A stretch of DNA of 35,497 nt from Minisyncoccota bacterium (GCA_035628215.1 DASPKG010000054.1:1-35497), one strand, 5' to 3'; positions 5,705-28,745 are shown, counted from the first letter of the stretch. Program-made: numbers and translations. The notes: generated by a model not told the origin, from the letters alone.

Positions 5705-7465
5705 CTAGGCACTATCGGTCACCGCGCGCAGCACCTCCTCGATGGAGGTCGTGCCCTTGGCGGCCTTGTAGAGGCCGTCCTCGAGCATGGTGAGCATGCC
5801 TTCCTTCCTCGCCTGCTCCTCGATCTGGTCCGAGGTCCCGCTATGGAGGATGAGGTCGCGGATCGCCGGCGAGACGGTGAGCACCTCGTGGATGCCGATG
5901 CGGCCCTTGTACCCTTCCTCGCACTCGGTGCTCGGCGTGGGCTTATAGAACGGGAGGGTATCGAGCTTCACGGTCGTCTTCACGAGCTTCTCGTCGTGGA
6001 GCGCCTTCAGCGCGGCCTCGAACTTGTCCTCATGCGCGACCTTCGCGCGCTCCTCGCTATCCAAGGTGTACTGCTCCTTTCCTTCGCAGAGCCTTCGGAC
6101 GAGCCGCTGGCCCACGACGACGCGAAGCGTCGACACCATGAGGAACGGCTCGACGCCCATATCGATGAGGCGCGGGATCGCGCCCGAGGCTGAGTTCGTA
6201 TGGATGGTCGAGAGCACGAGGTGGCCGGTCAAGGCCGCATTGATCGCAAGCGCCGCCGTCTCGCCGTCGCGGATCTCGCCCACCATGATGATGTTCGGGT
6301 CCTGGCGCAGGAGGGCGCGCAGCCCGTTGGCGAACGTGAACCCGATCGCGGGATTCACCTGCGTCTGATTCACGCGCTTCATCTGGTACTCGATCGGGTC
6401 CTCGACCGTGGAGATGTTCACGTCCGGCGTATTCAGAATATCGAGGATGGTATACAGGGTGGTCGTCTTGCCGGACCCGGTCGGCCCTGACACGAGGATG
6501 ATGCCGGTCGTCAGGCGGGTCGCGGTATGGATGCGCTCCAAGGTCTCGCCATGGAAGCCGAGCGCCTCAAGCGAGAAGCCCTCGGCGCCGCCCTCGCGAA
6601 GGAGGCGCATCACGACCTTCTCGCCGTAGTAGGTCGGCAGGAGCGATACGCGGAAGGACACCGCCTCCGACTCCGTCTGCATCTTGAAACGGCCGTCCTG
6701 CGGGAGCCGCTTCTCGTCGAGCTTCAAATTCGCCAAGACCTTGATGCGAGCGACCAGGCCCGCGGCCGCGTTCTTCGGGAGGGTCATGGCGTCATGCAGG
6801 ACGCCGTCGATGCGGTACCGGACGATGACCTCCGTCTCCGAGTGCTCGATGTGGATGTCGGAGGCGTCCTGGATGATGGCGTGGCGAAGCAGCGTGTCCA
6901 CGATGCGCACGATCGGCAGGTCCTCGGCCATCTTCTTGAGGTCCTCGCCCGAGACCTCCTCCCCGCCCGCCTCCTTGATGAGGTTGAGCTTCCCGGCCTC
7001 GGTGGAGATGAGGTCGCCGAACTCCTCCTTCAGCGACTTCTGGTATTGCACGAGGACCGACTTCAGAGATTCATCGTCCGTAAGGCGGGGGAGGATCTTC
7101 AACCCCGTCTTCTTCTTCACGGACTCGATCGAGGCGAGGTCTTCTGTATCGAGCATGGCGATCTCGAGGTCGTTGCCGCTCTTCCTGAACGCGACGATGG
7201 AGTGCGTGCGGGCGATGGGCTCGGGGATCAAGGAGAGCACGTCGAGCGGGATCTTGCGGTCCTTCAGGTTCACGAAGGGGATGCCGAGCACGTACGCCTT
7301 GATGCGGCGGAGCGCGTCAGCCGAGAGCGTCCCACGCGAGACGAGGATATCGCCGATGGATTGGCCGCGCTCCTCCGCTTCCTTCGCGGCATCCTCGACG
7401 TCCTTCCGGGCAACGAGTCCGGAATCGAGGATGAACTCTTTGAGTTCGCTTTCTGATACCTGCAT
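5705..7465 (-). CDS. pilB: Type IV pilus assembly ATPase PilB (GspE family)
   Basis: 586 aa with an N-terminal T2SSE_N-like domain, Walker A GPTGSGKTTT, and Asp/His boxes typical of GspE/PilB. Confidence 0.92.
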   Translation of the reverse strand: MQVSESELKEFILDSGLVARKDVEDAAKEAEERGQSIGDILVSRGTLSADALRRIKAYVLGIPFVNLKDRKIPLDVLSLIPEPIARTHSIVAFRKSGNDLEIAMLDTEDLASIESVKKKTGLKILPRLTDDESLKSVLVQYQKSLKEEFGDLISTEAGKLNLIKEAGGEEVSGEDLKKMAEDLPIVRIVDTLLRHAIIQDASDIHIEHSETEVIVRYRIDGVLHDAMTLPKNAAAGLVARIKVLANLKLDEKRLPQDGRFKMQTESEAVSFRVSLLPTYYGEKVVMRLLREGGAEGFSLEALGFHGETLERIHTATRLTTGIILVSGPTGSGKTTTLYTILDILNTPDVNISTVEDPIEYQMKRVNQTQVNPAIGFTFANGLRALLRQDPNIIMVGEIRDGETAALAINAALTGHLVLSTIHTNSASGAIPRLIDMGVEPFLMVSTLRVVVGQRLVRRLCEGKEQYTLDSEERAKVAHEDKFEAALKALHDEKLVKTTVKLDTLPFYKPTPSTECEEGYKGRIGIHEVLTVSPAIRDLILHSGTSDQIEEQARKEGMLTMLEDGLYKAAKGTTSIEEVLRAVTDSA

Positions 7466-15902: not shown

Positions 15903-16661
15903 TTACACTAGGTCCCAAAGATTGCGGAACACTTCGCGCTGGTCATGCGCAAGGAGCCTCGAATGGATCTCGACCATGTAATGCGGGTGTTGCCGGGTGT
16001 TGATCATAATGACGTAGTCGCCGCATATCCAGGTGCTCGAGATAAAATTCGTCGCTTCTCCCCAATATTTCATATCCCGTCGCTCATACTTCCCCATCAT
16101 GCGGCGCTCCGCCGAGGAAAGGTTCGTGAGGAGCTTCACATAGAGCTCAGGCGGCGCGATGCTCCACCAATAGTGGAGTTGATCCTCATAGGCCTCAACA
16201 AGAGTTGCGTCCTGGTACCCCCAGAAGCCGTACTCTTTGGTTTCAATCATGGATTCCATCCATATCGGGAAGACCTGCGGAAAGTAGGCTTCGAGTTTTG
16301 ATTCTTCAGTGAATTTGATGCGGGGCACCGGATAGGTCGTCTCCGCGTTAACCATGGAAACTTCCTCCGCGAGCTTCTTCAGGAGTTGCTGGCGCTCTTC
16401 AGAGCGCTTCCGTTCCGTCTCCACCGCAAGCGCGAGATCCTCGGTCGCCGCAGGACGAAATACGCGTGGGCGGCGGCTGGAGTCCTCTATCAGAAGTCCT
16501 TTCTCGATGAGGCTCCGGGCGATACTGTATGCGGTCGTGCGCTTAATGCCGGTCGCCTTCGCAAGGCGCGCCGGATCCAGCTCGCGGGCTCTCAACACTG
16601 CCTTGTAGACCTTGGCTTCCCGCGTATTGAGGCCAAGCGAAATGAGGAGCTGTTCGTCCAT
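15903..16661 (-). CDS. TrmB-family transcriptional regulator
   Basis: LGLNTREAKVYKAVLRARELDPARLAKATGIKRTTAYSIARSLIEKGLL is a TrmB-type wHTH, plus a C-terminal domain. Confidence 0.8.
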   Translation of the reverse strand: MDEQLLISLGLNTREAKVYKAVLRARELDPARLAKATGIKRTTAYSIARSLIEKGLLIEDSSRRPRVFRPAATEDLALAVETERKRSEERQQLLKKLAEEVSMVNAETTYPVPRIKFTEESKLEAYFPQVFPIWMESMIETKEYGFWGYQDATLVEAYEDQLHYWWSIAPPELYVKLLTNLSSAERRMMGKYERRDMKYWGEATNFISSTWICGDYVIMINTRQHPHYMVEIHSRLLAHDQREVFRNLWDLV

Positions 16662-16678
16662 ATGCTAAGGCTAACTGT

Positions 16679-16717
16679 TGTCGAATATTTGTCAACATTT
16701 GTTCGACATATGTTGAC
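16679..16717. promoter_or_regulatory. Interleaved inverted repeats (TGTCGAA...TTCGACA and TTGTCAACAT...ATGTTGAC), a candidate operator
   Basis: Read directly: TGTCGAA 16679-85 with TTCGACA 16702-08, and TTGTCAACAT 16689-98 with ATGTTGAC 16710-17. The site lies between the divergent TrmB-like gene and the beta-barrel gene. TTGAC/TTGACA -35-like hexamers follow. Confidence 0.4.
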
Positions 16718-16792
16718 CAACTTGACACCTTTTGCTTTTATATGCACAGACAGCGATGAGCGCTGATCAAACAACCTCATGGAGGACTTGGT

Positions 16793-17473
16793 ATGCGTAT
16801 CACGCTTGCTCTTCTTCTTTCGGCGATGCTTCTCGGGTCCGCCCAGAACGCCCTCGCCGACTGTACCGACACCCTCTACGGGAAGGCCGCGAGCGGTTAC
16901 ATCCTGAAGGACGTCGGCGCGGAGGCTTCCGACCAGCCGGTCGTCCAGGGCGGCGCGACCCGCACCTGCGGCAGACTCTCCTACGACCTGTGGGTGAGCG
17001 GCGGTCTGGCGGGCGACACCGCGAACGAGATCGACCTATCCGTCTACTACGACGACCAGGTCGGTCCCCTGAAGGTCCAGCTAGCGGCACAGTACTTTTT
17101 CGTCAGCCTCGACGACTCCCTCGGCGAGCCGAAGGACGACATCGTCGCGGGCTACGCGGACCTGAGCCTTCCCGTCACGCGCGGCAGGCTCACGATCGCG
17201 CCCCTGGTGCGGTTCGTGCAGCTCGTCGGCGTGAAGGACCTGCCGAACGAGGGCATCGTGCAGCCCGGCGTGCGTGGATCTTTCGCGCTCGACGATCGTA
17301 CGACGCTGTCGGCCGACATCCGGCATCCGATCAGCTCGCGCGGCTACTCGTTCTTCCGGGTCACCACGTCGCTGTCGCGCCAGGTCACCGAACGCTTCGC
17401 GGCGCAGGCGGGCTGGGAGGACACGGATCAGACGCCTTCGGTCTTCTGGTTCGGCGGCAAGTACAACTTTTAG
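16793..17473 (+). CDS. Secreted beta-barrel-like protein resembling the proteobacterial TIGR02001/Gcw_chp outer-membrane family
   Basis: Signal peptide MRITLALLLSAMLLGSAQNALA. Alternating beta-strand pattern. DQPVVQGG...DLWVSGG...NEIDLSVYY resembles the family core as I recall it. C-terminal aromatic ...GGKYNF. GGAGG lies 7 nt before the ATG. Confidence 0.5.
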   Translation: MRITLALLLSAMLLGSAQNALADCTDTLYGKAASGYILKDVGAEASDQPVVQGGATRTCGRLSYDLWVSGGLAGDTANEIDLSVYYDDQVGPLKVQLAAQYFFVSLDDSLGEPKDDIVAGYADLSLPVTRGRLTIAPLVRFVQLVGVKDLPNEGIVQPGVRGSFALDDRTTLSADIRHPISSRGYSFFRVTTSLSRQVTERFAAQAGWEDTDQTPSVFWFGGKYNF

Positions 17474-17554
17474 GGAGAAAGGAGCATTCCGGGGCGATAC
17501 ATCGCCCCTCCCATTCAGGTGCGGATATGTTCCGCACCTGATAGGAGAAAAATC
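17473..17554 (+). promoter_or_regulatory. Structured 5' leader, copy 1 (two hairpins, SD-sequestering), a candidate riboswitch-like element
   Basis: P1 is 17491-97/17502-08 (7 bp). The conserved linker is TCGCCCCTCCCATTCAG. P2 is 17515-25/17531-41 (11 bp). CUCC 17508-11 can pair with SD GGAG 17544-47, and upstream GGGAG/GGAG 17473-84 are possible competitors. Confidence 0.5.
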
Positions 17555-17692
17555 ATGCGCGTGTTCTTTCAAGAACTCAAAGAGATTGGTCAGGAAAACA
17601 ACTGCTGGGTGTGCGGCGCCCTATACGTCCTCATGCAGGTTGGCATGATCGCCCTTGGTATATGGGCCGCAGCTAACCGCATATGCCCATAG
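17555..17692 (+). CDS. Unannotated 45-aa ORF: amphipathic N-terminus, CxxC, one TM helix
   Basis: My own translation: MRVFFQELKEIGQENNCWVCGALYVLMQVGMIALGIWAAANRICP*. AGGAG lies 7 nt before the ATG. The stop is followed at once by the GGAGAGG SD of the methyltransferase. Confidence 0.35.
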   Translation: MRVFFQELKEIGQENNCWVCGALYVLMQVGMIALGIWAAANRICP

Positions 17693-17702
17693 GAGAGGTG
17701 AT

Positions 17703-18416
17703 ATGGAAACTGGACACCGTTTCGCCGGGAAATTGAGCGAAGACTACGATCTGGTGCGGGTCATGATTCCGCACTACGACGAACACCAGGACACGATCCA
17801 CACGGCGATCGAGGCATTTGCGCTCACGCACACGCCGATCGAGATTCTGCCGACCATCGATATCGGGTGCGGTACCGGCTTCACGGCCGAGCGCATTCTC
17901 GATGCCGATCCGCGCACCACGCTCATCGCCATCGACAACGAACCTGCGATGATGGATCAAGCGAGGGTGCGGCTCGAGCGGTTCGGCAATCGTGTCACCT
18001 TTTACGAGATGGACGCGCTTGAGGCGATCGGTCGCCTGCCGGCTCGGAGTGCGGAGATTGTGGCTTCTGGATGCGTTTTGCATAATCTCCCGCACGACTA
18101 TCGGTGGCGCCTGATGCGGAAAATCGGACGTGTGCTGGTGCCTGGCGGGCTCTTCGTGAATGCCGATAAGTTCGGCCTCGACGACCCTATGGAACACATG
18201 CTTCAACTCGCCGAACAGCTCAAGAACATTAGCGTGCTCGACGACATGGGGCGGTCCGATCTACGGGAAGCGTGGCATGCGCATTATCTCGAGGATGAGG
18301 AGATCAACTTCACTGAGAGCGAGCAAAAGGCGTTGCTGCGCGAGTCAGGCTTCTGGGGAATTACCACCATATACCGTAAGCGCCTGGAAGCGACCATTGC
18401 TGCCTTCAAGAAATAA
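17703..18416 (+). CDS. Class I SAM-dependent methyltransferase (CmoA-like layout)
   Basis: YDLVRVMIPHYDEHQDTI... then motif I IDIGCGTGFTAERIL. Start set at ATG 17703 after GGAGAGGTG; the track ORF begins at 17655. Confidence 0.85.
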   Translation: METGHRFAGKLSEDYDLVRVMIPHYDEHQDTIHTAIEAFALTHTPIEILPTIDIGCGTGFTAERILDADPRTTLIAIDNEPAMMDQARVRLERFGNRVTFYEMDALEAIGRLPARSAEIVASGCVLHNLPHDYRWRLMRKIGRVLVPGGLFVNADKFGLDDPMEHMLQLAEQLKNISVLDDMGRSDLREAWHAHYLEDEEINFTESEQKALLRESGFWGITTIYRKRLEATIAAFKK

Positions 18417-18424
18417 GTAGCAGA

Positions 18425-18504
18425 GGGAGCAGCTCTTTACGGGCGACCAAGCGTCGCCCCTCCCATTCAGTCGCGCATGCCTGCGCGACTGATAGGAGCA
18501 AGAT
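18425..18504 (+). promoter_or_regulatory. Structured 5' leader, copy 2 (paralog of 17473-17554)
   Basis: P1 is 18441-47/18453-59. The identical 17-mer TCGCCCCTCCCATTCAG is present. P2 is 18467-77/18482-92 (11 bp), then TA-GGAG (SD 18495-98) and ATG 18505. Three P2 base pairs differ from copy 1 by double compensatory changes. Confidence 0.5.
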
Positions 18505-19206
18505 ATGCATTCCATATACAACAAATCTGCGGAGGATATGAGCGAGGTGCGGAGCAATTCCGTCAATCTTATCGTTGCGTCTACCCCCTATAACGACGGA
18601 ACGGTGTACGGCCAGTTCGTAGACAAGACTTCCCTCGAGCAGTACTGCCAGATGATGGAACGAGTAATCGCTGAATGTGCACGCGTCCTGCATCCAGAAG
18701 GGAGGCTCATCATCGAGGTGGCGGATACTGCGATCGTGCAGGGCCATTTCGTGCAGCTTGCAGCCCTGTGGCAGCAGGCAGCGTTGAGGTCACAGCTGCA
18801 CCTGAGCGAGCGGCATATAAATTTCGTTCAGACCCATAAGGGCAACGAAGATGCGACTCATGGGGACGGATTCATCTCTCCGCCAGTCACGGCGGAGTTG
18901 GATGAAACGCACTCGAACAGCTGCCAGTGGCTTGTGTTCACCAAGAAATCTTCTGAATTCCTGGGTGGGAACATCTACTATCAGAACTACGTATACGATC
19001 TTGAGGAGCACCACTGTCCTTATACGGACGAGTTTTGTAGAACCTTCTTTGAGATTGGGCACTTCAAGTCTGGCGACACGGTACTGGAAGTGTTCATGGG
19101 TACTGCCACGCTGGGCCTACACGTATTAGAGCGAGAGGGTATATACATCGGTTACGAAATTGACTCGATCATATTCGCGCGCGCCCAACAGCGGCTTGCT
19201 CGATAA
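18505..19206 (+). CDS. Beta-class N4/N6 DNA-methyltransferase-like protein with atypical motifs
   Basis: SVNLIVASTPYNDG (motif IV is STPY instead of D/S-PPY) lies near the N-terminus. DTVLEVFMGTATLG (motif I is FMGTA instead of FxGxG) lies near the C-terminus. The order IV..I indicates beta class. No adjacent restriction endonuclease. Confidence 0.7.
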   Translation: MHSIYNKSAEDMSEVRSNSVNLIVASTPYNDGTVYGQFVDKTSLEQYCQMMERVIAECARVLHPEGRLIIEVADTAIVQGHFVQLAALWQQAALRSQLHLSERHINFVQTHKGNEDATHGDGFISPPVTAELDETHSNSCQWLVFTKKSSEFLGGNIYYQNYVYDLEEHHCPYTDEFCRTFFEIGHFKSGDTVLEVFMGTATLGLHVLEREGIYIGYEIDSIIFARAQQRLAR

Positions 19207-19226: not shown

Positions 19227-19256
19227 GCCGCGCCTACTCGGCGCGGTCTTCTTTTC
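19227..19256 (+). terminator. Terminator hairpin for the methyltransferase cassette, overlapping the 3' end of rarA
   Basis: CCGCGCC-tactc-GGCGCGG (19228-46) followed by TCTTCTTTTC. Confidence 0.55.
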
Positions 19257-20391
19257 TGAAATACTTCCTATCCTTCAGCTTCTCCGGCATATAACTCTCC
19301 GTGTCGTATCGCTTGTATCCCTTCTTGTACCCGAGGTCCTTCATGAGCTTCGTGGGCGCATTCCGGATCTTCTTCGGAATCGGAAGGTTGCCATGCCGGC
19401 GCACGTCTCCCTGCGCTTCACCGAGTGCCTCATATGCCGACTTATCCTTCGCTGCGTTCGAAAGATAGGCGACCCCATGCGCGAGATTGATGGCGCACTC
19501 AGGATACCCGATCACTTCACAGGCGCGGAAGACCGCGTTTGCGACCACCAAGGCCGTCGGTTGCGCGAGCCCGATATCCTCCGAGGCAAAGATGACCATC
19601 CTGCGCGCGATGAAGAGTGGGTCCTCCCCCGCCTCCACCATCCGAGCGAGGTAGTACATGGCGGCGTCGGGTTGCGAGGCCCGCATGCTCTTAATGAACG
19701 CGCTGATGGTGTCGTAGTGCTCGTCGCCCTTCTTATCGTAGCGCAGGTGCGGGTCCTCGAGTGCCTTATTGAGCGTATCAACCGATACCTTTCCATAGAG
19801 GGATTTCGCGCCCTCGAGGATGGTGAGCGCCCGGCGGGCGTCGCCATTGGCGTAGCCGAGGAGCCAATCGAACGCGTCGTTGGAAAGCTTGATCTTCGCC
19901 CGAGCGACGATCGCCCGAAGCGATTCCTCTGAAAGTGGTTCGAGTACGAAGACCCGGGCGCGGGAAAGAAGCGCCGGGATGACCTCGAAGGAGGGGTTCT
20001 CGGTCGTCGCACCGATCAACGTCAGCTCCCCGCTTTCGACGTACGGCAAGAGGAAGTCCTGCTGCGCCTTGTTGAAGCGGTGGATCTCGTCGAGGAAGAG
20101 GACCTTGGGGCGCAGCCCCAAGGTCGGGCCCTTCCCCTCCCCGACGATCTTCCGGATATCCTCCTTGCCGGCCGAAACCGCGGAGAGCTCGTAGAGCTCG
20201 GCCGCGAGCGCGCGGGCGTAGATGCGGGCGATGGTGGTCTTACCGGTTCCGGGCGGTCCCCAGAGGATGAAGGAGAACCGGTGCTGCTTCTCGATAGCGA
20301 CCCGGAGCGGCTTATTCTTCCCGACCAAATGCTCCTGGCCCACGAACTCATCGAGGGACTGGGGGCGGATGCGGTTGGCGAGCGGTTCCAT
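19234..20391 (-). CDS. rarA: Replication-associated recombination protein A (AAA+ ATPase MgsA/RarA)
   Basis: [16 protein letters not shown]...[18 protein letters not shown] and the MgsA C-terminal domain. Confidence 0.92.
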
Positions 20392-20825: not shown

Positions 20826-21749
20826 TTAGTCGTCGATCTCATCGACTGCGTCGTCGGCAAGCTCCTCGGCCTCCTCAGCGTGGTCGATCGCATCGCGGTA
20901 GTCCTTGCGATCGAAGGCATCGAGAGCGTCCTCGTATTCGTCCTCGGCCTCATCGAGGAGGTCCTCGGCATCATCGACGTCCTCACCGTCATCGTCAGCA
21001 TCATCGATCTCCTCCCAGGCGTCATCGATGGCATCGTCCGCCTCCTCGATCGCGCGGCGGGCATTGGCCTCAGATGCGCTCGTGCTCGAGGAACCGATCT
21101 CATCGACGGCATCCTCGGCGTTCTCCTCCGCATCGTCGGCGAAGTCGACCGCGTCATCGTAATCGCCGTCATTGTAGGCGCGGCGGGCCCTCTTCAGGTC
21201 GTCGCGGGCCTCATCAAGGAGGTCCTCGGCGTCACGCACGTTCTTGTTCGCGCGCCTGGCGTCCGAAATGTCATCGCGCGCGTCGTCGATCGCCTCGCGG
21301 GCATCGTCGATCGCCTCGCGGGCGTCCCGACGGTCCGCATCATTGCTGCGATTGCGGTTCGAGTTACGCGTGTCGATGATCGGCGTGTTCGAGAACGGGT
21401 TGGACGGGTTGCCGGCGAGAGCGGAGACACGGAAGACGCCGGTCACCTGCTGGCCGGTCGCCGCCTGCCAACGCGCAACGGCTGCCTGGGTGAGGGGCCC
21501 GAAGCTGTAGCCCTCGCGACCATAGGAGCCAGCGCCGGTGTACGCGACTGGGTAGCCTGACGCGTTGAGGTAGCGCTGGAGGCAGCGCACATCCTCGCCG
21601 AAGGCGCCGAGGAAGAGATCGCGGGTGAAGACGCACTGGGTGGTCTGCGCGAACTGGGCGCTTGCGGTGGGCGCGAAGCCGAGCACGGCAACGGCGCCGA
21701 TCACCGCGGCGAGTACTACCAAACCGATCTTAGAGATTGCATTTAGCAT
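20826..21749 (-). CDS. Secreted peptidoglycan-binding-domain protein with a long acidic D/E/A repeat tail
   Basis: Signal/TM segment MLNAISKIGLVVLAAVIGAVAVLGFAPTASA. PG_binding_1-like region GEDVRCLQRYLNASGYPV...FGPLTQAAVARWQ. About 190 aa of DAREAIDDAREAIDDARDD... including a 21-bp tandem duplication (21281-21322). Confidence 0.7.
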   Translation of the reverse strand: MLNAISKIGLVVLAAVIGAVAVLGFAPTASAQFAQTTQCVFTRDLFLGAFGEDVRCLQRYLNASGYPVAYTGAGSYGREGYSFGPLTQAAVARWQAATGQQVTGVFRVSALAGNPSNPFSNTPIIDTRNSNRNRSNDADRRDAREAIDDAREAIDDARDDISDARRANKNVRDAEDLLDEARDDLKRARRAYNDGDYDDAVDFADDAEENAEDAVDEIGSSSTSASEANARRAIEEADDAIDDAWEEIDDADDDGEDVDDAEDLLDEAEDEYEDALDAFDRKDYRDAIDHAEEAEELADDAVDEIDD

Positions 21750-27842: not shown

Positions 27843-28745
27843 CTACTTCCTTGAATGGAACCGCTTATGTACTTCTCGTAAGTGCGCATCCGTCACATGC
27901 GTATAGATCTGAGTTGTATTGATGGAGGCATGACCTAAAAGTGCCTGAACGCTGCGCAGATCCGCGCCGTTCGAGAGGAGATCGGTCGCAAACGAATGGC
28001 GCAGCACGTGCGGCGTGACCTTCTTCGTAATGCCGGCCTTGGTCGCGTAGTGCTTGATGATGAGCTGGACGCCCCGCGGCGTGAGCCTCGTCGGGGTCTT
28101 CTTCGAATCCTTCCCGACCCGCGGGATGTTCACAAAGAGCGCCTCCTCCATGTCCTTGCGCGCCTTCATATAGGTACGGACCGCTTCCTTGCTCGCGTCC
28201 GACAGGAACACCACCCGCACCTTGTCTCCCTTGCCGCGCACCGAGAGGTCGTCGCGCGAGAGGTCGATATCCGAATTGAGCGCGCAGAGTTCGGAAACGC
28301 GCAGTCCGGTGGAGAAGAGGAGCTCGAGGATGGCGCGGTCCCGGAGCGCCTTCTCCTCGGTCCCGTCCGCGGCCTTGATGAGCCGGTCGAGCTCGGCGCT
28401 CGAGATGAGGTCAATCTGCCGCTCGGGGAGCTTCGCAAGCTCGATGCGCTCCGGATTGAGCCCCTCGATGCCGCGCTTGCGGAGGAACTTGAGGAAGGCC
28501 CGCAGCGCGATGAGGTAGTAGTTCTGGGTCCGGCGCTTCATGGTGCCCGAGGTTCCTGGCTGGCGGTTCAGCCACAACCGGAATTCCCGGATCCGCTCCT
28601 CGGTGATATCCGAGACTTCCTTGATCTCCATCTGCGTGAAGAACCGGTCGAGGTAGTGCTCGTAATTTTCGATGGTCTTGACCGCGCGACCGCGCTCGAT
28701 CTCGGTGTATTCGAGGAACTGGCGGAGCATCGAGCGAGCATCCAT
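27843..28745 (-). CDS. Tyrosine recombinase XerC/XerD family
   Basis: SAM-like N-terminal domain. LRHSFATDLL...LLGHASINTTQIYTHV catalytic region. TATACT 6 nt before the ATG. Confidence 0.88.
   Translation of the reverse strand: MDARSMLRQFLEYTEIERGRAVKTIENYEHYLDRFFTQMEIKEVSDITEERIREFRLWLNRQPGTSGTMKRRTQNYYLIALRAFLKFLRKRGIEGLNPERIELAKLPERQIDLISSAELDRLIKAADGTEEKALRDRAILELLFSTGLRVSELCALNSDIDLSRDDLSVRGKGDKVRVVFLSDASKEAVRTYMKARKDMEEALFVNIPRVGKDSKKTPTRLTPRGVQLIIKHYATKAGITKKVTPHVLRHSFATDLLSNGADLRSVQALLGHASINTTQIYTHVTDAHLREVHKRFHSRK

What the first reader, a model, noticed from the sequence alone, without database searches (positions are those of the whole stretch)
17473..18504. Two paralogous SD-sequestering two-hairpin leaders with compensatory base changes, each preceding a methyltransferase unit
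Seen in sequence: elements at 17473-17554 and 18425-18504 share one architecture. In order, each has upstream GGGAG, P1 (a 7-bp GC-rich hairpin), an identical 17-mer TCGCCCCTCCCATTCAG, P2 (an 11-bp hairpin), CTGATA, the SD GGAG, 6-7 nt, and then ATG. The outer UCAG/CUGA of P2 is conserved. Three inner pairs differ between the copies by double, pairing-preserving substitutions (G-C to U-A, U-A to C-G, G-C to C-G). P1 also shifts while preserving pairing (GAU..AUC versus GAC..GUC). Loop sequences are not conserved. CUCC in the 17-mer can pair with the SD, extending P2 across a 3x2 internal loop. The upstream GGGAG/GGAG segments can compete for the same CUCCC. That gives a classic ON/OFF translational switch topology.

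Copy 1 controls a 45-aa peptide plus a CmoA-like SAM methyltransferase. Copy 2 controls a DNA-methyltransferase-like gene.

Inference: this is a cis-regulatory RNA (riboswitch, protein-binding leader or thermosensor) coordinating two SAM-dependent enzymes, so a SAM/SAH-type ligand is an attractive guess. I could not match it from memory to SAM-I to SAM-VI, SAM/SAH, SAH, preQ1, guanidine, ZTP or fluoride consensus features.
Basis: partly seen in the sequence, partly recalled or inferred. Interest (0 to 1): 0.8.

Follow-up and report, generated by a model that had tools for sequence, protein, structure and literature searches.

The report
Conserved two-hairpin RNA leader between genes
The two look-alike stretches are real copies of a previously undescribed folded RNA element that sits just ahead of genes in one variable operon of a small group of ultra-small (CPR/Paceibacterota) bacteria and most likely controls how well the ribosome can start on those genes; it is not tied to methyltransferases or to SAM.

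Summary
Both window copies (17491-17557 and 18441-18507) have P1, a conserved linker, P2, CUGAUAGGAG, 6-7 nt and then ATG. No Rfam family matches them.

Pattern scans and a covariance model found 17 distinct copies in 13 related Paceibacterota genomes or metagenome contigs. Sixteen of 24 pairs show compensatory changes and 95.5% of cells are paired, against 40-49% in slid controls. G·U wobbles place the fold on the sense RNA.

Wherever the flanks are on the contig, the copy lies in one variable operon, transcribed divergently from a TrmB-like regulator gene and usually ending at rarA. Fifteen copies follow an upstream same-strand ORF and one sits in a 5'UTR. Downstream genes are heterogeneous: small membrane peptides, class I methyltransferase, DNA-methylase-like, cupin, receiver-like, porin-like and unknowns. 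A SAM/SAH riboswitch is therefore unsupported.

UCC(C) next to P1 is predicted to pair with the invariant GGA of the SD. An upstream GGAG box occurs in 11 of 17 copies. These genomes are otherwise SD-poor and look largely leaderless.

Best reading: a new, lineage-specific SD-masking translational control element whose trigger is unknown. The main rival is an mRNA processing and stability module.

The parts
15903..16661 (-). TrmB-like winged-helix regulator gene (252 aa), divergent from the operon that carries the elements
   Evidence: Pfam PF01978, E = 5.9e-13. Orthologues at 50-74% identity flank every locus in which the element was found and whose flank is on the contig.
16662..16792 (+). 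Intergenic region with near-invariant repeats (TGTTGTCGAATATTTGTCAACATTTGTTCGACA..TTGAC), read as a probable operator plus promoter, and the SD-containing leader of the first operon gene
   Evidence: The repeats are conserved in all 12 loci compared. The promoter and operator function is inferred, not shown.
16793..17473 (+). First operon gene: 226-aa secreted protein predicted to be a small porin-like beta-barrel. Its stop codon lies 17 nt before P1 of element 1.
   Evidence: ORF. Homologues P0002 and P0003. AlphaFold model with pLDDT 76. Foldseek matches KdgM, NanC and OmpG.
17473..17484 (+). Upstream purine boxes of element 1 (GGGAG 17473-17477, AGGAG 17480-17484). They are possible competitors for the UCCC anti-SD segment.
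   Evidence: Sequence. A GGAG/GAGG box lies within 25 nt 5' of P1 in 11 of 17 family copies against 16% background. The MFE of copy 1 pairs GGGA with UCCC.
17491..17508 (+). Element 1, P1 hairpin (GGGGCGA-UACA-UCGCCCC)
   Evidence: Seven of the 9 P1 pairs show compensatory changes across the family.
17509..17514 (+). Element 1, conserved linker UCCCAU. UCC(C) is a cis anti-SD that pairs with GGA(G) at 17544-17547 to form P3.
   Evidence: U34 and C35 are invariant in 17 copies. Position C36 is C in 12, U in 4 (keeping a G·U pair) and A in 1. RNAalifold predicts P3. Partition-function folding pairs the SD with this segment.
17515..17541 (+). Element 1, P2 hairpin (11 bp, loop UAUGU). The outer UCAG/CUGA pairs are conserved and the inner pairs covary.
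   Evidence: Nine of the 12 P2 pairs show compensatory changes.
17542..17557 (+). Element 1, 3' segment: UA, SD GGAG (17544-17547), a 7-nt spacer and ATG (17555) of the 45-aa peptide ORF
   Evidence: GGA is invariant in 17 of 17 copies. The SD-to-start spacing is 6-10 nt in 13 of 17 copies.
17555..17692 (+). 45-aa hydrophobic peptide ORF downstream of element 1
   Evidence: ORF. It was also called as a gene on the native contig. It has no family hit.
17703..18416 (+). Class I SAM-dependent methyltransferase (237 aa). It has its own SD (AGGAG) but no element. Its stop codon lies 24 nt before P1 of element 2.
   Evidence: Pfam Methyltransf_25, _12 and _11. No NCBIfam equivalog is reached. In L014 and L017 the orthologous gene or its remnant is directly preceded by the element.
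18425..18429 (+). Upstream purine box GGGAG of element 2
18441..18459 (+). Element 2, P1 hairpin (GGGCGAC-CAAGC-GUCGCCC)
18460..18466 (+). Element 2, linker CUCCCAU. CUCC pairs with GGAG at 18495-18498 to form P3.
   Evidence: The MFE and centroid contain P3. Pair probabilities are 0.86-0.89.
18467..18492 (+). Element 2, P2 hairpin (11 bp, loop UGCC)
18493..18507 (+). Element 2, 3' segment: UA, SD GGAG (18495-18498), a 6-nt spacer and ATG (18505)
18505..19206 (+). N6/N4 DNA-methylase-like gene (233 aa), last gene of the operon
   Evidence: Pfam PF01555, E = 1.6e-14, covering residues 20-87 only. NCBIfam scores are all below the cut-offs.
19227..19257 (+). Canonical intrinsic terminator (8-bp GC stem followed by CTTCTTTTCT) that closes the operon
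   Evidence: No terminator-like or promoter-like site was found at or between the two elements.

Best explanation
The two elements belong to a new, lineage-specific cis-acting RNA motif that is part of the translation-initiation region of genes inside one polycistronic operon. Occasionally it sits in that operon's 5'UTR instead.

The RNA folds into a stable P1 hairpin that directly abuts a short helix P3. In P3 the pyrimidine segment UCC(C), which mimics the anti-SD, pairs with the GGA(G) of the SD. P3 is closed on its other side by a 3x2 internal loop and the stable P2 hairpin. In this folded state the SD, which lies 6-10 nt before the start codon, is masked. Translation of the downstream cistron therefore depends on opening P3.

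Candidate openers are the upstream GGAG box, which can take the UCC(C) segment instead, or a trans-acting partner that recognises the invariant AUUCAG/CUGA(U)A core.

What is shown: the fold, its covariation, its strand, its fixed position relative to start codons, and its confinement to one operon type.

What is inferred: that P3 forms in vivo, that it limits initiation, and that it is opened in a regulated way. The trigger is unknown.
For: Family and structure:
- 17 copies in 13 genomes or contigs.
- On the 15-copy alignment, 95.5% of cells are paired and 16 of 24 pairs have changes on both sides. 0 of 500 shuffles reach this, and slid controls give 40-49%.
- RNAalifold, run on the model-fitted 17-copy alignment, also predicts P1, P3 and P2, with 15 of 23 pairs compensatory.

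Strand:
- There are 18 G·U against 6 A·C pairs overall.
- In the 11 best copies there are 9 G·U and 0 A·C.

P3:
- U-A and C-G are invariant. The third pair is C-G in 12 copies, U·G in 4 and broken in 1.
- Partition-function folding pairs the SD mostly with the linker. Mean P(unpaired) is 0.02-0.28 in the 12 copies that keep GGAG and a downstream gene.
- SD-like motifs of other genes mostly give about 0.3-0.8.

Link to translation starts:
- GGA is invariant, and ATG follows 6-10 nt after GGAG in 13 of 17 copies.
- Three of the four copies whose conserved SD no longer serves a start codon have defects in P2. L019 and L025 have GGAA with the real SD further downstream. L029 has no downstream gene. 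L027 is the exception and remains well paired.
- One copy (L036b) lies in a 5'UTR with no upstream ORF, so the element is not only an inter-gene spacer.

Competitor box: a GGAG/GAGG box occurs 5' of P1 in 11 of 17 copies, with binomial p about 1e-5 against background. In two variant copies P1 itself is GGGAG...CUCCC.

One transcript: there is no promoter-like or terminator-like site at the elements, and a canonical terminator follows the last gene.

SD context: 13 of 17 operon genes have an SD-like motif against 16 of 107 other genes. SD-dependent initiation therefore appears special to this operon.
Against: - P3 is only 3-4 bp and shows no double compensatory change. Its conservation could reflect the SD requirement plus something else.
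- The near-invariance of AUUCAG/CUGA(U)A and of A38/A70 in the internal loop is not explained by SD masking.
- The upstream box is missing in 6 of 17 copies, and several of the copies that have it are orthologous positions, so they are not independent.
- No conserved alternative (ON) structure could be demonstrated.
- In three copies (L019, L025, L027) the conserved AGGA is not the working SD, yet it is retained.
- SD accessibility values overlap those of some element-free operon genes (0.16-0.45).
- Whether ribosomes of this lineage carry an anti-SD at all is unknown. The motif was detected in only 48% of Parcubacteria (PMC9297842).
- There are no expression data.
Confidence: 0.45

Rival explanations
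1. mRNA processing and stability module. An endoribonuclease such as RNase Y or RNase III cuts in or next to the conserved single-stranded linker. P1 then protects the 3' end of the upstream message. P2 becomes a 5'-terminal stabiliser hairpin next to the SD of the downstream message. The cistrons of this unusual polycistronic operon would thereby be uncoupled in stability.
For: - Two very stable hairpins flank a sequence-conserved linker inside an operon.
- P1 begins a few nt after the upstream stop, at a modal distance of 15 nt.
- P1 is weakest in the one copy that has no upstream cistron, L036b.
- First-gene leaders of the same operon start with a comparable hairpin followed by AU or UCAUUCAG and then the SD.
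- Sequence-level invariance of AUUCAG/CUGAUA suggests recognition by a protein.
Against: - There is no end-mapping data.
- The linker is C-rich rather than AU-rich.
- The stacked helices are short for RNase III.
- The model does not explain the invariant UC...GGA complementarity, or why copies decay when the SD is no longer used.
- The element also occurs in a 5'UTR.
Confidence: 0.2
2. Cis SD-helix mimic, acting as an internal ribosome-entry device. In a lineage that translates mostly leaderless mRNAs and may lack a functional anti-SD tail, the preformed UCC(C):GGA(G) helix is held between P1 and P2. It would dock where the SD:anti-SD helix normally sits on the 30S platform and place the AUG 6-10 nt downstream into the P site.
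For: - Only 16 of 107 non-operon genes have an SD-like motif, against 9 in a control window. 47 of 107 have a -10-like box 4-10 nt before ATG.
- The anti-SD motif was detected in only 48% of Parcubacteria, while h26, which contacts the SD helix, stays conserved (PMC9297842).
- The helix sequence and its distance to the AUG are invariant even though P1 and P2 vary.
- Other SDs of the operon also have an adjacent pyrimidine complement, for example CCUCAUGGAGG before the 226-aa gene.
Against: - The 16S 3' end of these genomes could not be obtained.
- Element-free genes of the same operon carry ordinary-looking SDs at normal spacing, such as the MT at 17703. That suggests normal SD recognition.
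- There is no precedent for such a mechanism.
- A 3-bp helix is a weak mimic.
Confidence: 0.1
3. Metabolite riboswitch, SAM/SAH or another ligand, that masks the SD on ligand binding.
For: - The structure is conserved, with invariant nucleotides around an internal loop and the SD.
- Two of the regulated genes in the window are SAM-dependent enzymes.
Against: - There is no match to any SAM, SAH or other riboswitch model, even at E up to 10.
- The loops and most unpaired positions are not conserved.
- The downstream genes are functionally unrelated.
- Two to three copies occur in series in one operon before unrelated genes.
Confidence: 0.06
4. DNA-level recombination site that marks gene cassettes. 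Structure-conserved, sequence-variable hairpins at the borders of variable genes would be analogous to integron attC sites or to single-strand transposon ends.
For: - Gene content between the TrmB-like gene and rarA differs in almost every genome, and the variable genes are each preceded by a copy.
- L017 keeps a 14-codon remnant of the MT gene right after the element.
Against: - There are no attC R''/R' cores and no integrase or HUH gene next to the array. The nearest Xer-like gene lies about 9 kb away.
- The orientation and distance to start codons are fixed.
- The G·U pattern points to an RNA or sense-strand fold.
- P2 types do not track the neighbouring genes.
- The shuffling can be explained by ordinary homologous recombination between copies.
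Confidence: 0.04
5. Partial transcription terminator or attenuator (P1 or P2) that lowers read-through into the distal genes.
For: GC-rich hairpins lie directly after stop codons.
Against: - No U tract follows either hairpin.
- These genomes do use canonical U-tract terminators, at window 19227-19257 and at the L019 operon end.
- The scan calls no terminator at the elements.
- Termination does not explain the conserved linker and SD segment.
Confidence: 0.05

Closest known systems
SD-sequestering translational riboregulators (small translational riboswitches such as SAM-II, SAM-V, SAM/SAH and preQ1-II, and protein-binding leaders of ribosomal-protein operons)
   Same: A cis-acting structured RNA lies immediately 5' of a start codon. 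The SD is paired with a conserved pyrimidine segment, and helices are supported by covariation.
   Different: There is no covariance-model match to any Rfam family. The loops are not conserved and no pseudoknot is evident. The gene set is heterogeneous. The element is mostly intercistronic, repeated within one operon, and confined to one locus type in one CPR clade.
RNA thermometers (ROSE, fourU)
   Same: The SD sits in a short, weak helix interrupted by an internal loop and flanked by more stable helper hairpins. No ligand pocket is needed.
   Different: There is no sequence or covariance-model similarity. No heat-shock or virulence genes are involved. The helper hairpins are far more stable, and the AUUCAG/CUGAUA core is invariant, which thermometers do not need.
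Intercistronic stabiliser and processing hairpins (REP/BIME in malEFG, puf operon hairpins, the RNase Y site in cggR-gapA)
   Same: Stable hairpins lie inside a polycistronic mRNA just after a stop codon, with the potential to set different stability or expression for neighbouring cistrons.
   Different: REP-type elements are dispersed in high copy number, whereas this element is locus-specific. It has a conserved single-stranded linker and incorporates the downstream SD at a fixed distance.
Integron attC sites
   Same: A hairpin with conserved outer bases and freely covarying inner stem, repeated at the borders of variable genes.
   Different: There are no RYYYAAC/GTTRRRY cores and no integrase. 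The element lies 5' of and fixed to start codons. The wobble pattern fits sense RNA.

Membership tests
SAM / SAH riboswitch classes (SAM-I to VI, SAM/SAH, SAH) | Match to the family covariance model (sequence plus structure) | tested here: not met
   cmscan of the window at gathering thresholds returned only tRNAs. A scan of 17300-18700 at E up to 10 gave no hit overlapping either element. Twelve related loci gave only tRNAs.
SAM / SAH riboswitch classes (SAM-I to VI, SAM/SAH, SAH) | Consistent association with SAM or methionine metabolism genes | tested here: not met
   Only 4 of 17 copies precede anything methyltransferase-related. The rest precede peptides, a cupin pair, a receiver-like protein, a porin-like barrel and unknowns.
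SAM / SAH riboswitch classes (SAM-I to VI, SAM/SAH, SAH) | Specific binding of SAM or SAH | not testable with these tools
   This needs in-line probing or ITC.
RNA thermometers (ROSE, fourU) | Match to the Rfam ROSE or FourU models | tested here: not met
   No hit.
RNA thermometers (ROSE, fourU) | SD held in a short imperfect helix that could melt | tested here: met
   P3 is 3-4 bp next to a 3x2 internal loop.
RNA thermometers (ROSE, fourU) | Temperature-dependent opening, and heat-shock or virulence genes downstream | tested here: not met
   The downstream genes are unrelated to heat shock. Melting itself is not testable here.
Intrinsic (Rho-independent) terminator | GC-rich hairpin followed by a U tract | tested here: not met
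   P1 is followed by UCCCAUUCAG and P2 by AUAGGAG. The scan calls no terminator at either element but does call one at 19227-19247.
Integron attC site | R''/L'' and L'/R' cores (RYYYAAC ... GTTRRRY) with an intI integrase at the array | tested here: not met
   No such cores are present in the 17 aligned copies. No integrase lies adjacent. A Xer-like gene lies about 9 kb away in the window and about 2 kb away in L011.
REP/BIME-type dispersed extragenic palindromes | Many copies dispersed over the genome | tested here: not met
   The core pattern hit once each in two whole representative genomes, both times in this operon. Only 2 true hits came from the metagenome collection. A filters-off covariance-model search finds only the two copies in the 35-kb window.
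Generic class: SD-masking cis-regulatory leader | Conserved secondary structure supported by covariation on the mRNA strand | tested here: met
Generic class: SD-masking cis-regulatory leader | SD base-paired to a cis anti-SD segment in the conserved fold | tested here: inconclusive
   The pairing is predicted in all copies and is tolerant of C-to-U changes (4 copies). However, the helix is 3-4 bp, has no double compensatory change, and is broken in one copy.
Generic class: SD-masking cis-regulatory leader | Start codon at SD spacing downstream | tested here: met
   The spacing is 6-10 nt in 13 of 17 copies.
Generic class: SD-masking cis-regulatory leader | Regulated change of expression | not testable with these tools
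   This needs reporters, toeprinting or ribosome profiling.

The most novel reading that the evidence does not exclude
In a bacterial lineage that translates mostly leaderless mRNAs and may have lost the 16S anti-SD tail, this element could be an mRNA-borne substitute for the SD:anti-SD helix. A preformed UCC(C):GGA(G) duplex would be clamped between two hairpins, dock on the 30S platform and allow internal initiation on a polycistronic mRNA. That would make it a bacterial IRES-like device.
Probability: 0.1. Interest if true: 0.9.

Novelty: new variant of a known kind. Interest (0 to 1): 0.58.

Why it matters
Structured cis-regulatory RNAs specific to CPR/Patescibacteria appear to be almost undescribed: three full-text literature searches here returned none. 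This motif has unusually clean covariation for its size. It is absent from Rfam 15.

It sits in the one operon of these genomes that is rich in Shine-Dalgarno sequences, while most other genes look leaderless. That gives a concrete handle on how ultra-small bacteria with reduced ribosomes start translation on internal cistrons. It also helps test whether the anti-SD tail is still used in Parcubacteria, an open point raised by PMC9297842. Finally, it may inform how a hypervariable accessory operon next to a TrmB-like regulator is controlled.

If the motif turns out to be only a static SD-masking or stabilising spacer, it is a modest addition to the catalogue of RNA motifs.

Tried and rejected
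- Known RNA family. Rfam gathering and E<=10 scans of the window and gathering scans of 12 loci gave nothing at any copy.
- Dispersed repeat or MITE. The direct-repeat search and a filters-off covariance-model search find only two copies in 35 kb. Strict core patterns are rare in the 596-Gb genome collection and in the metagenome collection. Nine of the 11 metagenome hits were chance matches in coding DNA without hairpins.
- Phage origin. There were 0 hits in IMG/VR.
- dsDNA operator for the TrmB-like protein. The inner P2 bases differ between copies in the same genome while staying complementary. The loop and spacer lengths vary by 3-5 nt. G·U wobbles occur only on the sense strand.
- Extended -10 promoter reading of TGATAGGAG. 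The critical -12 and -11 positions vary (CAGGAG, AAGGAG, TCGGAG) while GGA is invariant, and the last base is G rather than T.
- Coding sequence or uORF. Indels in the loops are not multiples of three, and no start codon follows the upstream box at SD spacing.
- Translational coupling by a terminating ribosome. The stop-to-P1 distance ranges from -12 to +36 nt, mostly too far to reach P3.
- Shared function of the downstream genes. Pfam and NCBIfam gave no common theme.
- 16S rRNA 3' end of the lineage. No rRNA is present in any fetched locus. The collection scans and look-ups were exhausted, and the paper's supplements are not held.
Full report
1. THE OBSERVATION

Both elements are present as described.

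| Feature | Copy 1 | Copy 2 |
|---|---|---|
| Upstream stop codon | TAG 17471-17473 | TAA 18414-18416 |
| Purine box(es) | GGGAG 17473-77, AGGAG 17480-84 | GGGAG 18425-29 |
| P1 | 17491-97 with 17502-08 | 18441-47 with 18453-59 |
| Linker | UCCCAU | CUCCCAU |
| P2 (11 bp) | 17515-25 with 17531-41 | 18467-77 with 18482-92 |
| 3' segment | UA, GGAG 17544-47 | UA, GGAG 18495-98 |
| Spacer to ATG | 7 nt, ATG 17555 | 6 nt, ATG 18505 |

- The shared 17-mer occurs exactly twice. With up to 3 mismatches, 0.2 matches are expected.
- Both RNAs fold much better than dinucleotide shuffles, with z = -5.6 and -5.3.
- The three double substitutions in P2 are correct.
- Neither element, nor any relative found later, matches an Rfam 15 family.

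2. A FAMILY, NOT A LOCAL DUPLICATION

- A core-pattern scan of 185,579 species genomes returned two hits, L004 and L005.
- A looser pattern scan of JGI metagenomes returned two true members, L011 and L014, plus nine chance hits that lack hairpins.
- Loci fetched through homologues of the neighbouring 226-aa protein and of the TrmB-like regulator were searched with a covariance model built from eight copies.
- This raised the family to 17 distinct copies in 13 genomes or contigs, scoring 36-85 bits.
- All are Paceibacterota (Parcubacteria) by the records' names. One record is titled Saccharibacteria but has the same synteny.

3. THE STRUCTURE IS SELECTED, AND ON THE SENSE RNA

- On the 15-copy model alignment, 95.5% of cells are paired, against 40-49% when partners are slid.
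- Sixteen of 24 pairs have changes on both sides: P1 7 of 9 and P2 9 of 12. No shuffle out of 500 reaches the observed values. The hand-checked 8-copy MAFFT alignment gives the same picture.
- RNAalifold, run on the model-fitted 17-copy alignment, also predicts P1, P3 and P2.
- The 11 best copies contain 9 G·U pairs and no A·C pair. The fold therefore belongs to the strand that is sense to the downstream gene.
- P1 can even be replaced wholesale. It is GGGAGAAGC/GCUUCUCCC in L011b and L033, GGGGUGAC/GUCACCCC in L025, and has A-U at the base in L019 and L027.
- Invariant or nearly invariant positions are CC-UC-NN-AUUCAG, a central A-U pair in P2, and CUGA-N-AGGA.

4. CONTEXT

- Wherever the flanks are on the contig, the copy lies in a single operon type. 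The operon is transcribed divergently from a TrmB-like gene. In the window and most loci it sits in the conserved frame RNase Y - HU - TrmB-like ... rarA.
- The TrmB-operon intergenic region carries near-invariant repeats that look like an operator plus promoter.
- Fifteen copies follow an upstream ORF on the same strand. That ORF stops between 36 nt before P1 and inside the P1 loop, with a modal distance of 15 nt. One copy (L036b) is in the 5'UTR of the first gene. One copy (L014) is at a contig end.
- In the window no promoter-like or terminator-like site occurs at the elements, and a canonical U-tract terminator follows the last gene. Elements 1 and 2 are therefore internal to one transcript, about 16.7-19.25 kb.
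- A TrmB homologue in a different context (L030) and a one-gene version of the operon (L035) have no copy.
- Gene content behind the element changes from genome to genome:
  - small membrane peptides of 43-66 aa and other short ORFs (46, 61, 77 aa);
  - a class I methyltransferase (window via the peptide, L014, remnant in L017);
  - an N6/N4-methylase-like gene;
  - a cupin pair;
  - a receiver-like protein;
  - the porin-like 225-aa protein;
  - proteins without any family.
- This rules out a methyltransferase-specific or SAM-specific regulon.

5. RELATION TO TRANSLATION STARTS

- GGA of the 3' segment is invariant, and an ATG follows GGAG by 6-10 nt in 13 of 17 copies.
- U34-A73 and C35-G72 of P3 are invariant. 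The third pair is C-G in 12 copies, U·G in 4 and A/G in 1.
- In partition-function folds the SD pairs mainly with this linker. Mean P(unpaired) is 0.02-0.28 in the 12 copies that keep GGAG and a downstream gene.
- Of the four copies whose conserved SD no longer serves a start, three have defects in P2. L019 and L025 have GGAA with another SD further downstream. L029 has no downstream gene. L027 remains well paired.
- A GGAG/GAGG box lies within 25 nt 5' of P1 in 11 of 17 copies against 16% of random windows. The copies are not all independent.
- In the two variant copies P1 itself is GGGAG:CUCCC. CUCC ... GGAG) is thus a recurrent, though not universal, feature.

6. AN UNEXPECTED BACKGROUND

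- In seven loci, only 16 of 107 genes outside the operon have an SD-like motif at -18..-4, against 9 in a control window.
- By contrast, 47 of 107 have a TANNNT box ending 4-10 nt before the ATG, the signature of leaderless transcripts.
- In the operon, 13 of 17 genes have an SD-like motif and none has such a box.
- Tsurumaki et al. 2022 (PMC9297842) report that the 16S anti-SD motif was detected in only 48% of Parcubacteria.
- I could not obtain the 16S 3' end of this lineage.
- The element therefore belongs to an island of SD-type initiation in genomes that otherwise hardly use it.

7. MECHANISM

Most likely (about 0.45): an SD-masking translational control element.
- P1 abuts and probably stacks on the short P3 helix (UCC(C):GGA(G)). 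P3 is closed by the internal loop and P2, and initiation requires P3 to open.
- The upstream GGAG box or an unknown partner that recognises the invariant AUUCAG/CUGAUA core could do this.
- Shown: the fold, the strand, the position and the locus specificity.
- Inferred: masking in vivo and its regulation.
- Weak points: P3 is short and lacks double compensatory changes. The invariant core is not explained by SD complementarity. Three copies keep AGGA although it is not their SD.

Rivals:

| Rival | Confidence | Main point |
|---|---|---|
| Processing and stability module | about 0.2 | Cut in the linker. P1 acts as a 3' protector and P2 as a 5' stabiliser, as the 5' hairpin of the first-gene leader suggests. 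|
| Cis SD-helix mimic for internal ribosome entry | about 0.1 | Would apply in an anti-SD-poor lineage. |
| Metabolite riboswitch | about 0.06 | No model match, and the genes are heterogeneous. |
| Partial terminator | about 0.05 | There is no U tract. |
| Cassette recombination site | about 0.04 | No cores and no recombinase, and the fold is on sense RNA. |

8. COMPARISON WITH KNOWN SYSTEMS, AND VERDICT

- The element works most like small SD-sequestering leaders and like RNA thermometers. It is positioned like intercistronic stabiliser hairpins. It fails the membership tests for every named family examined (see the membership table).
- It is a new motif family of a known general kind. Its distribution is narrow, one Paceibacterota clade and one operon type, but the covariation is strong.
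The structural interpretation is largely right. The SAM/SAH and 'two methyltransferases' reading is not supported.

Noticed in passing
window-wide, e.g. starts at 19234-20391(-), 27843-28745(-), 24641(+); also loci L003, L017, L019, L022, L025, L033 and L036: Most genes lack an SD. 47 of 107 genes have a -10-like TANNNT box ending 4-10 nt before the ATG, which indicates leaderless-type starts. Only the TrmB-divergent operon is SD-rich, with 13 of 17 genes. This fits the reported loss of the anti-SD motif in about half of Parcubacteria (PMC9297842).
   Followed up: partly
window 16793-17473 (+): The 226-aa first operon gene has a signal peptide and a C-terminal Phe. It is predicted (pLDDT 76) to be an all-beta barrel whose best structural matches are small outer-membrane porins: KdgM (TM 0.81, rmsd 3.1), NanC and OmpG. 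This is odd for a CPR bacterium, which is generally thought to lack an outer membrane. Only three sequence homologues were found in 5.8 billion proteins.
   Followed up: partly
window 16662-16792: Near-invariant repeats (TGTTGTCGAATATTTGTCAACATTTGTYCGACA...TTGAC) lie between the TrmB-like gene and the operon in all 12 loci compared. They are a probable operator plus promoter for the TrmB-like regulator.
   Followed up: partly
window 16740-16792; L004 4478-4540(-); L022 and L029 equivalents: First-gene leaders carry a small hairpin (ACAGCG..CGCUG) followed by AU or UCAUUCAG and then an SD that has an adjacent pyrimidine complement (CCUCAUGGAGG). This resembles a cut-down version of the element.
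   Followed up: no
L017 10787-10831: A 14-codon remnant (MDSSDRFTGMIGRG*) of the class I methyltransferase gene follows the element directly. This is evidence of gene loss and turnover behind the element.
   Followed up: no
L005 ~6728-6850(-) and L011 4021-4143(-): A conserved ~40-aa membrane-peptide ORF (..W-K-x-R-x-A-D-A...ILIFLF.AAPI.ARGM..H*) is the cistron immediately upstream of the element in two distant genomes.
   Followed up: no
L004 (CAYWQN010000001.1): The record is titled 'Candidatus Saccharibacteria'. It is probably mislabelled.
   Followed up: no
window 20826-21749 (-): A 307-aa secreted protein has a peptidoglycan-binding domain and a long, highly acidic, internally repetitive D/E-A-x-D-D region. 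This region accounts for the largest direct-repeat family in the window.
   Followed up: no
P2 columns 48/59 of alignment A5: One P2 position is a U·G wobble in 8 of 17 copies and G-C in 8, within a recurrent CUGAA...UUCGG apex. It is possibly a functional wobble.
   Followed up: no
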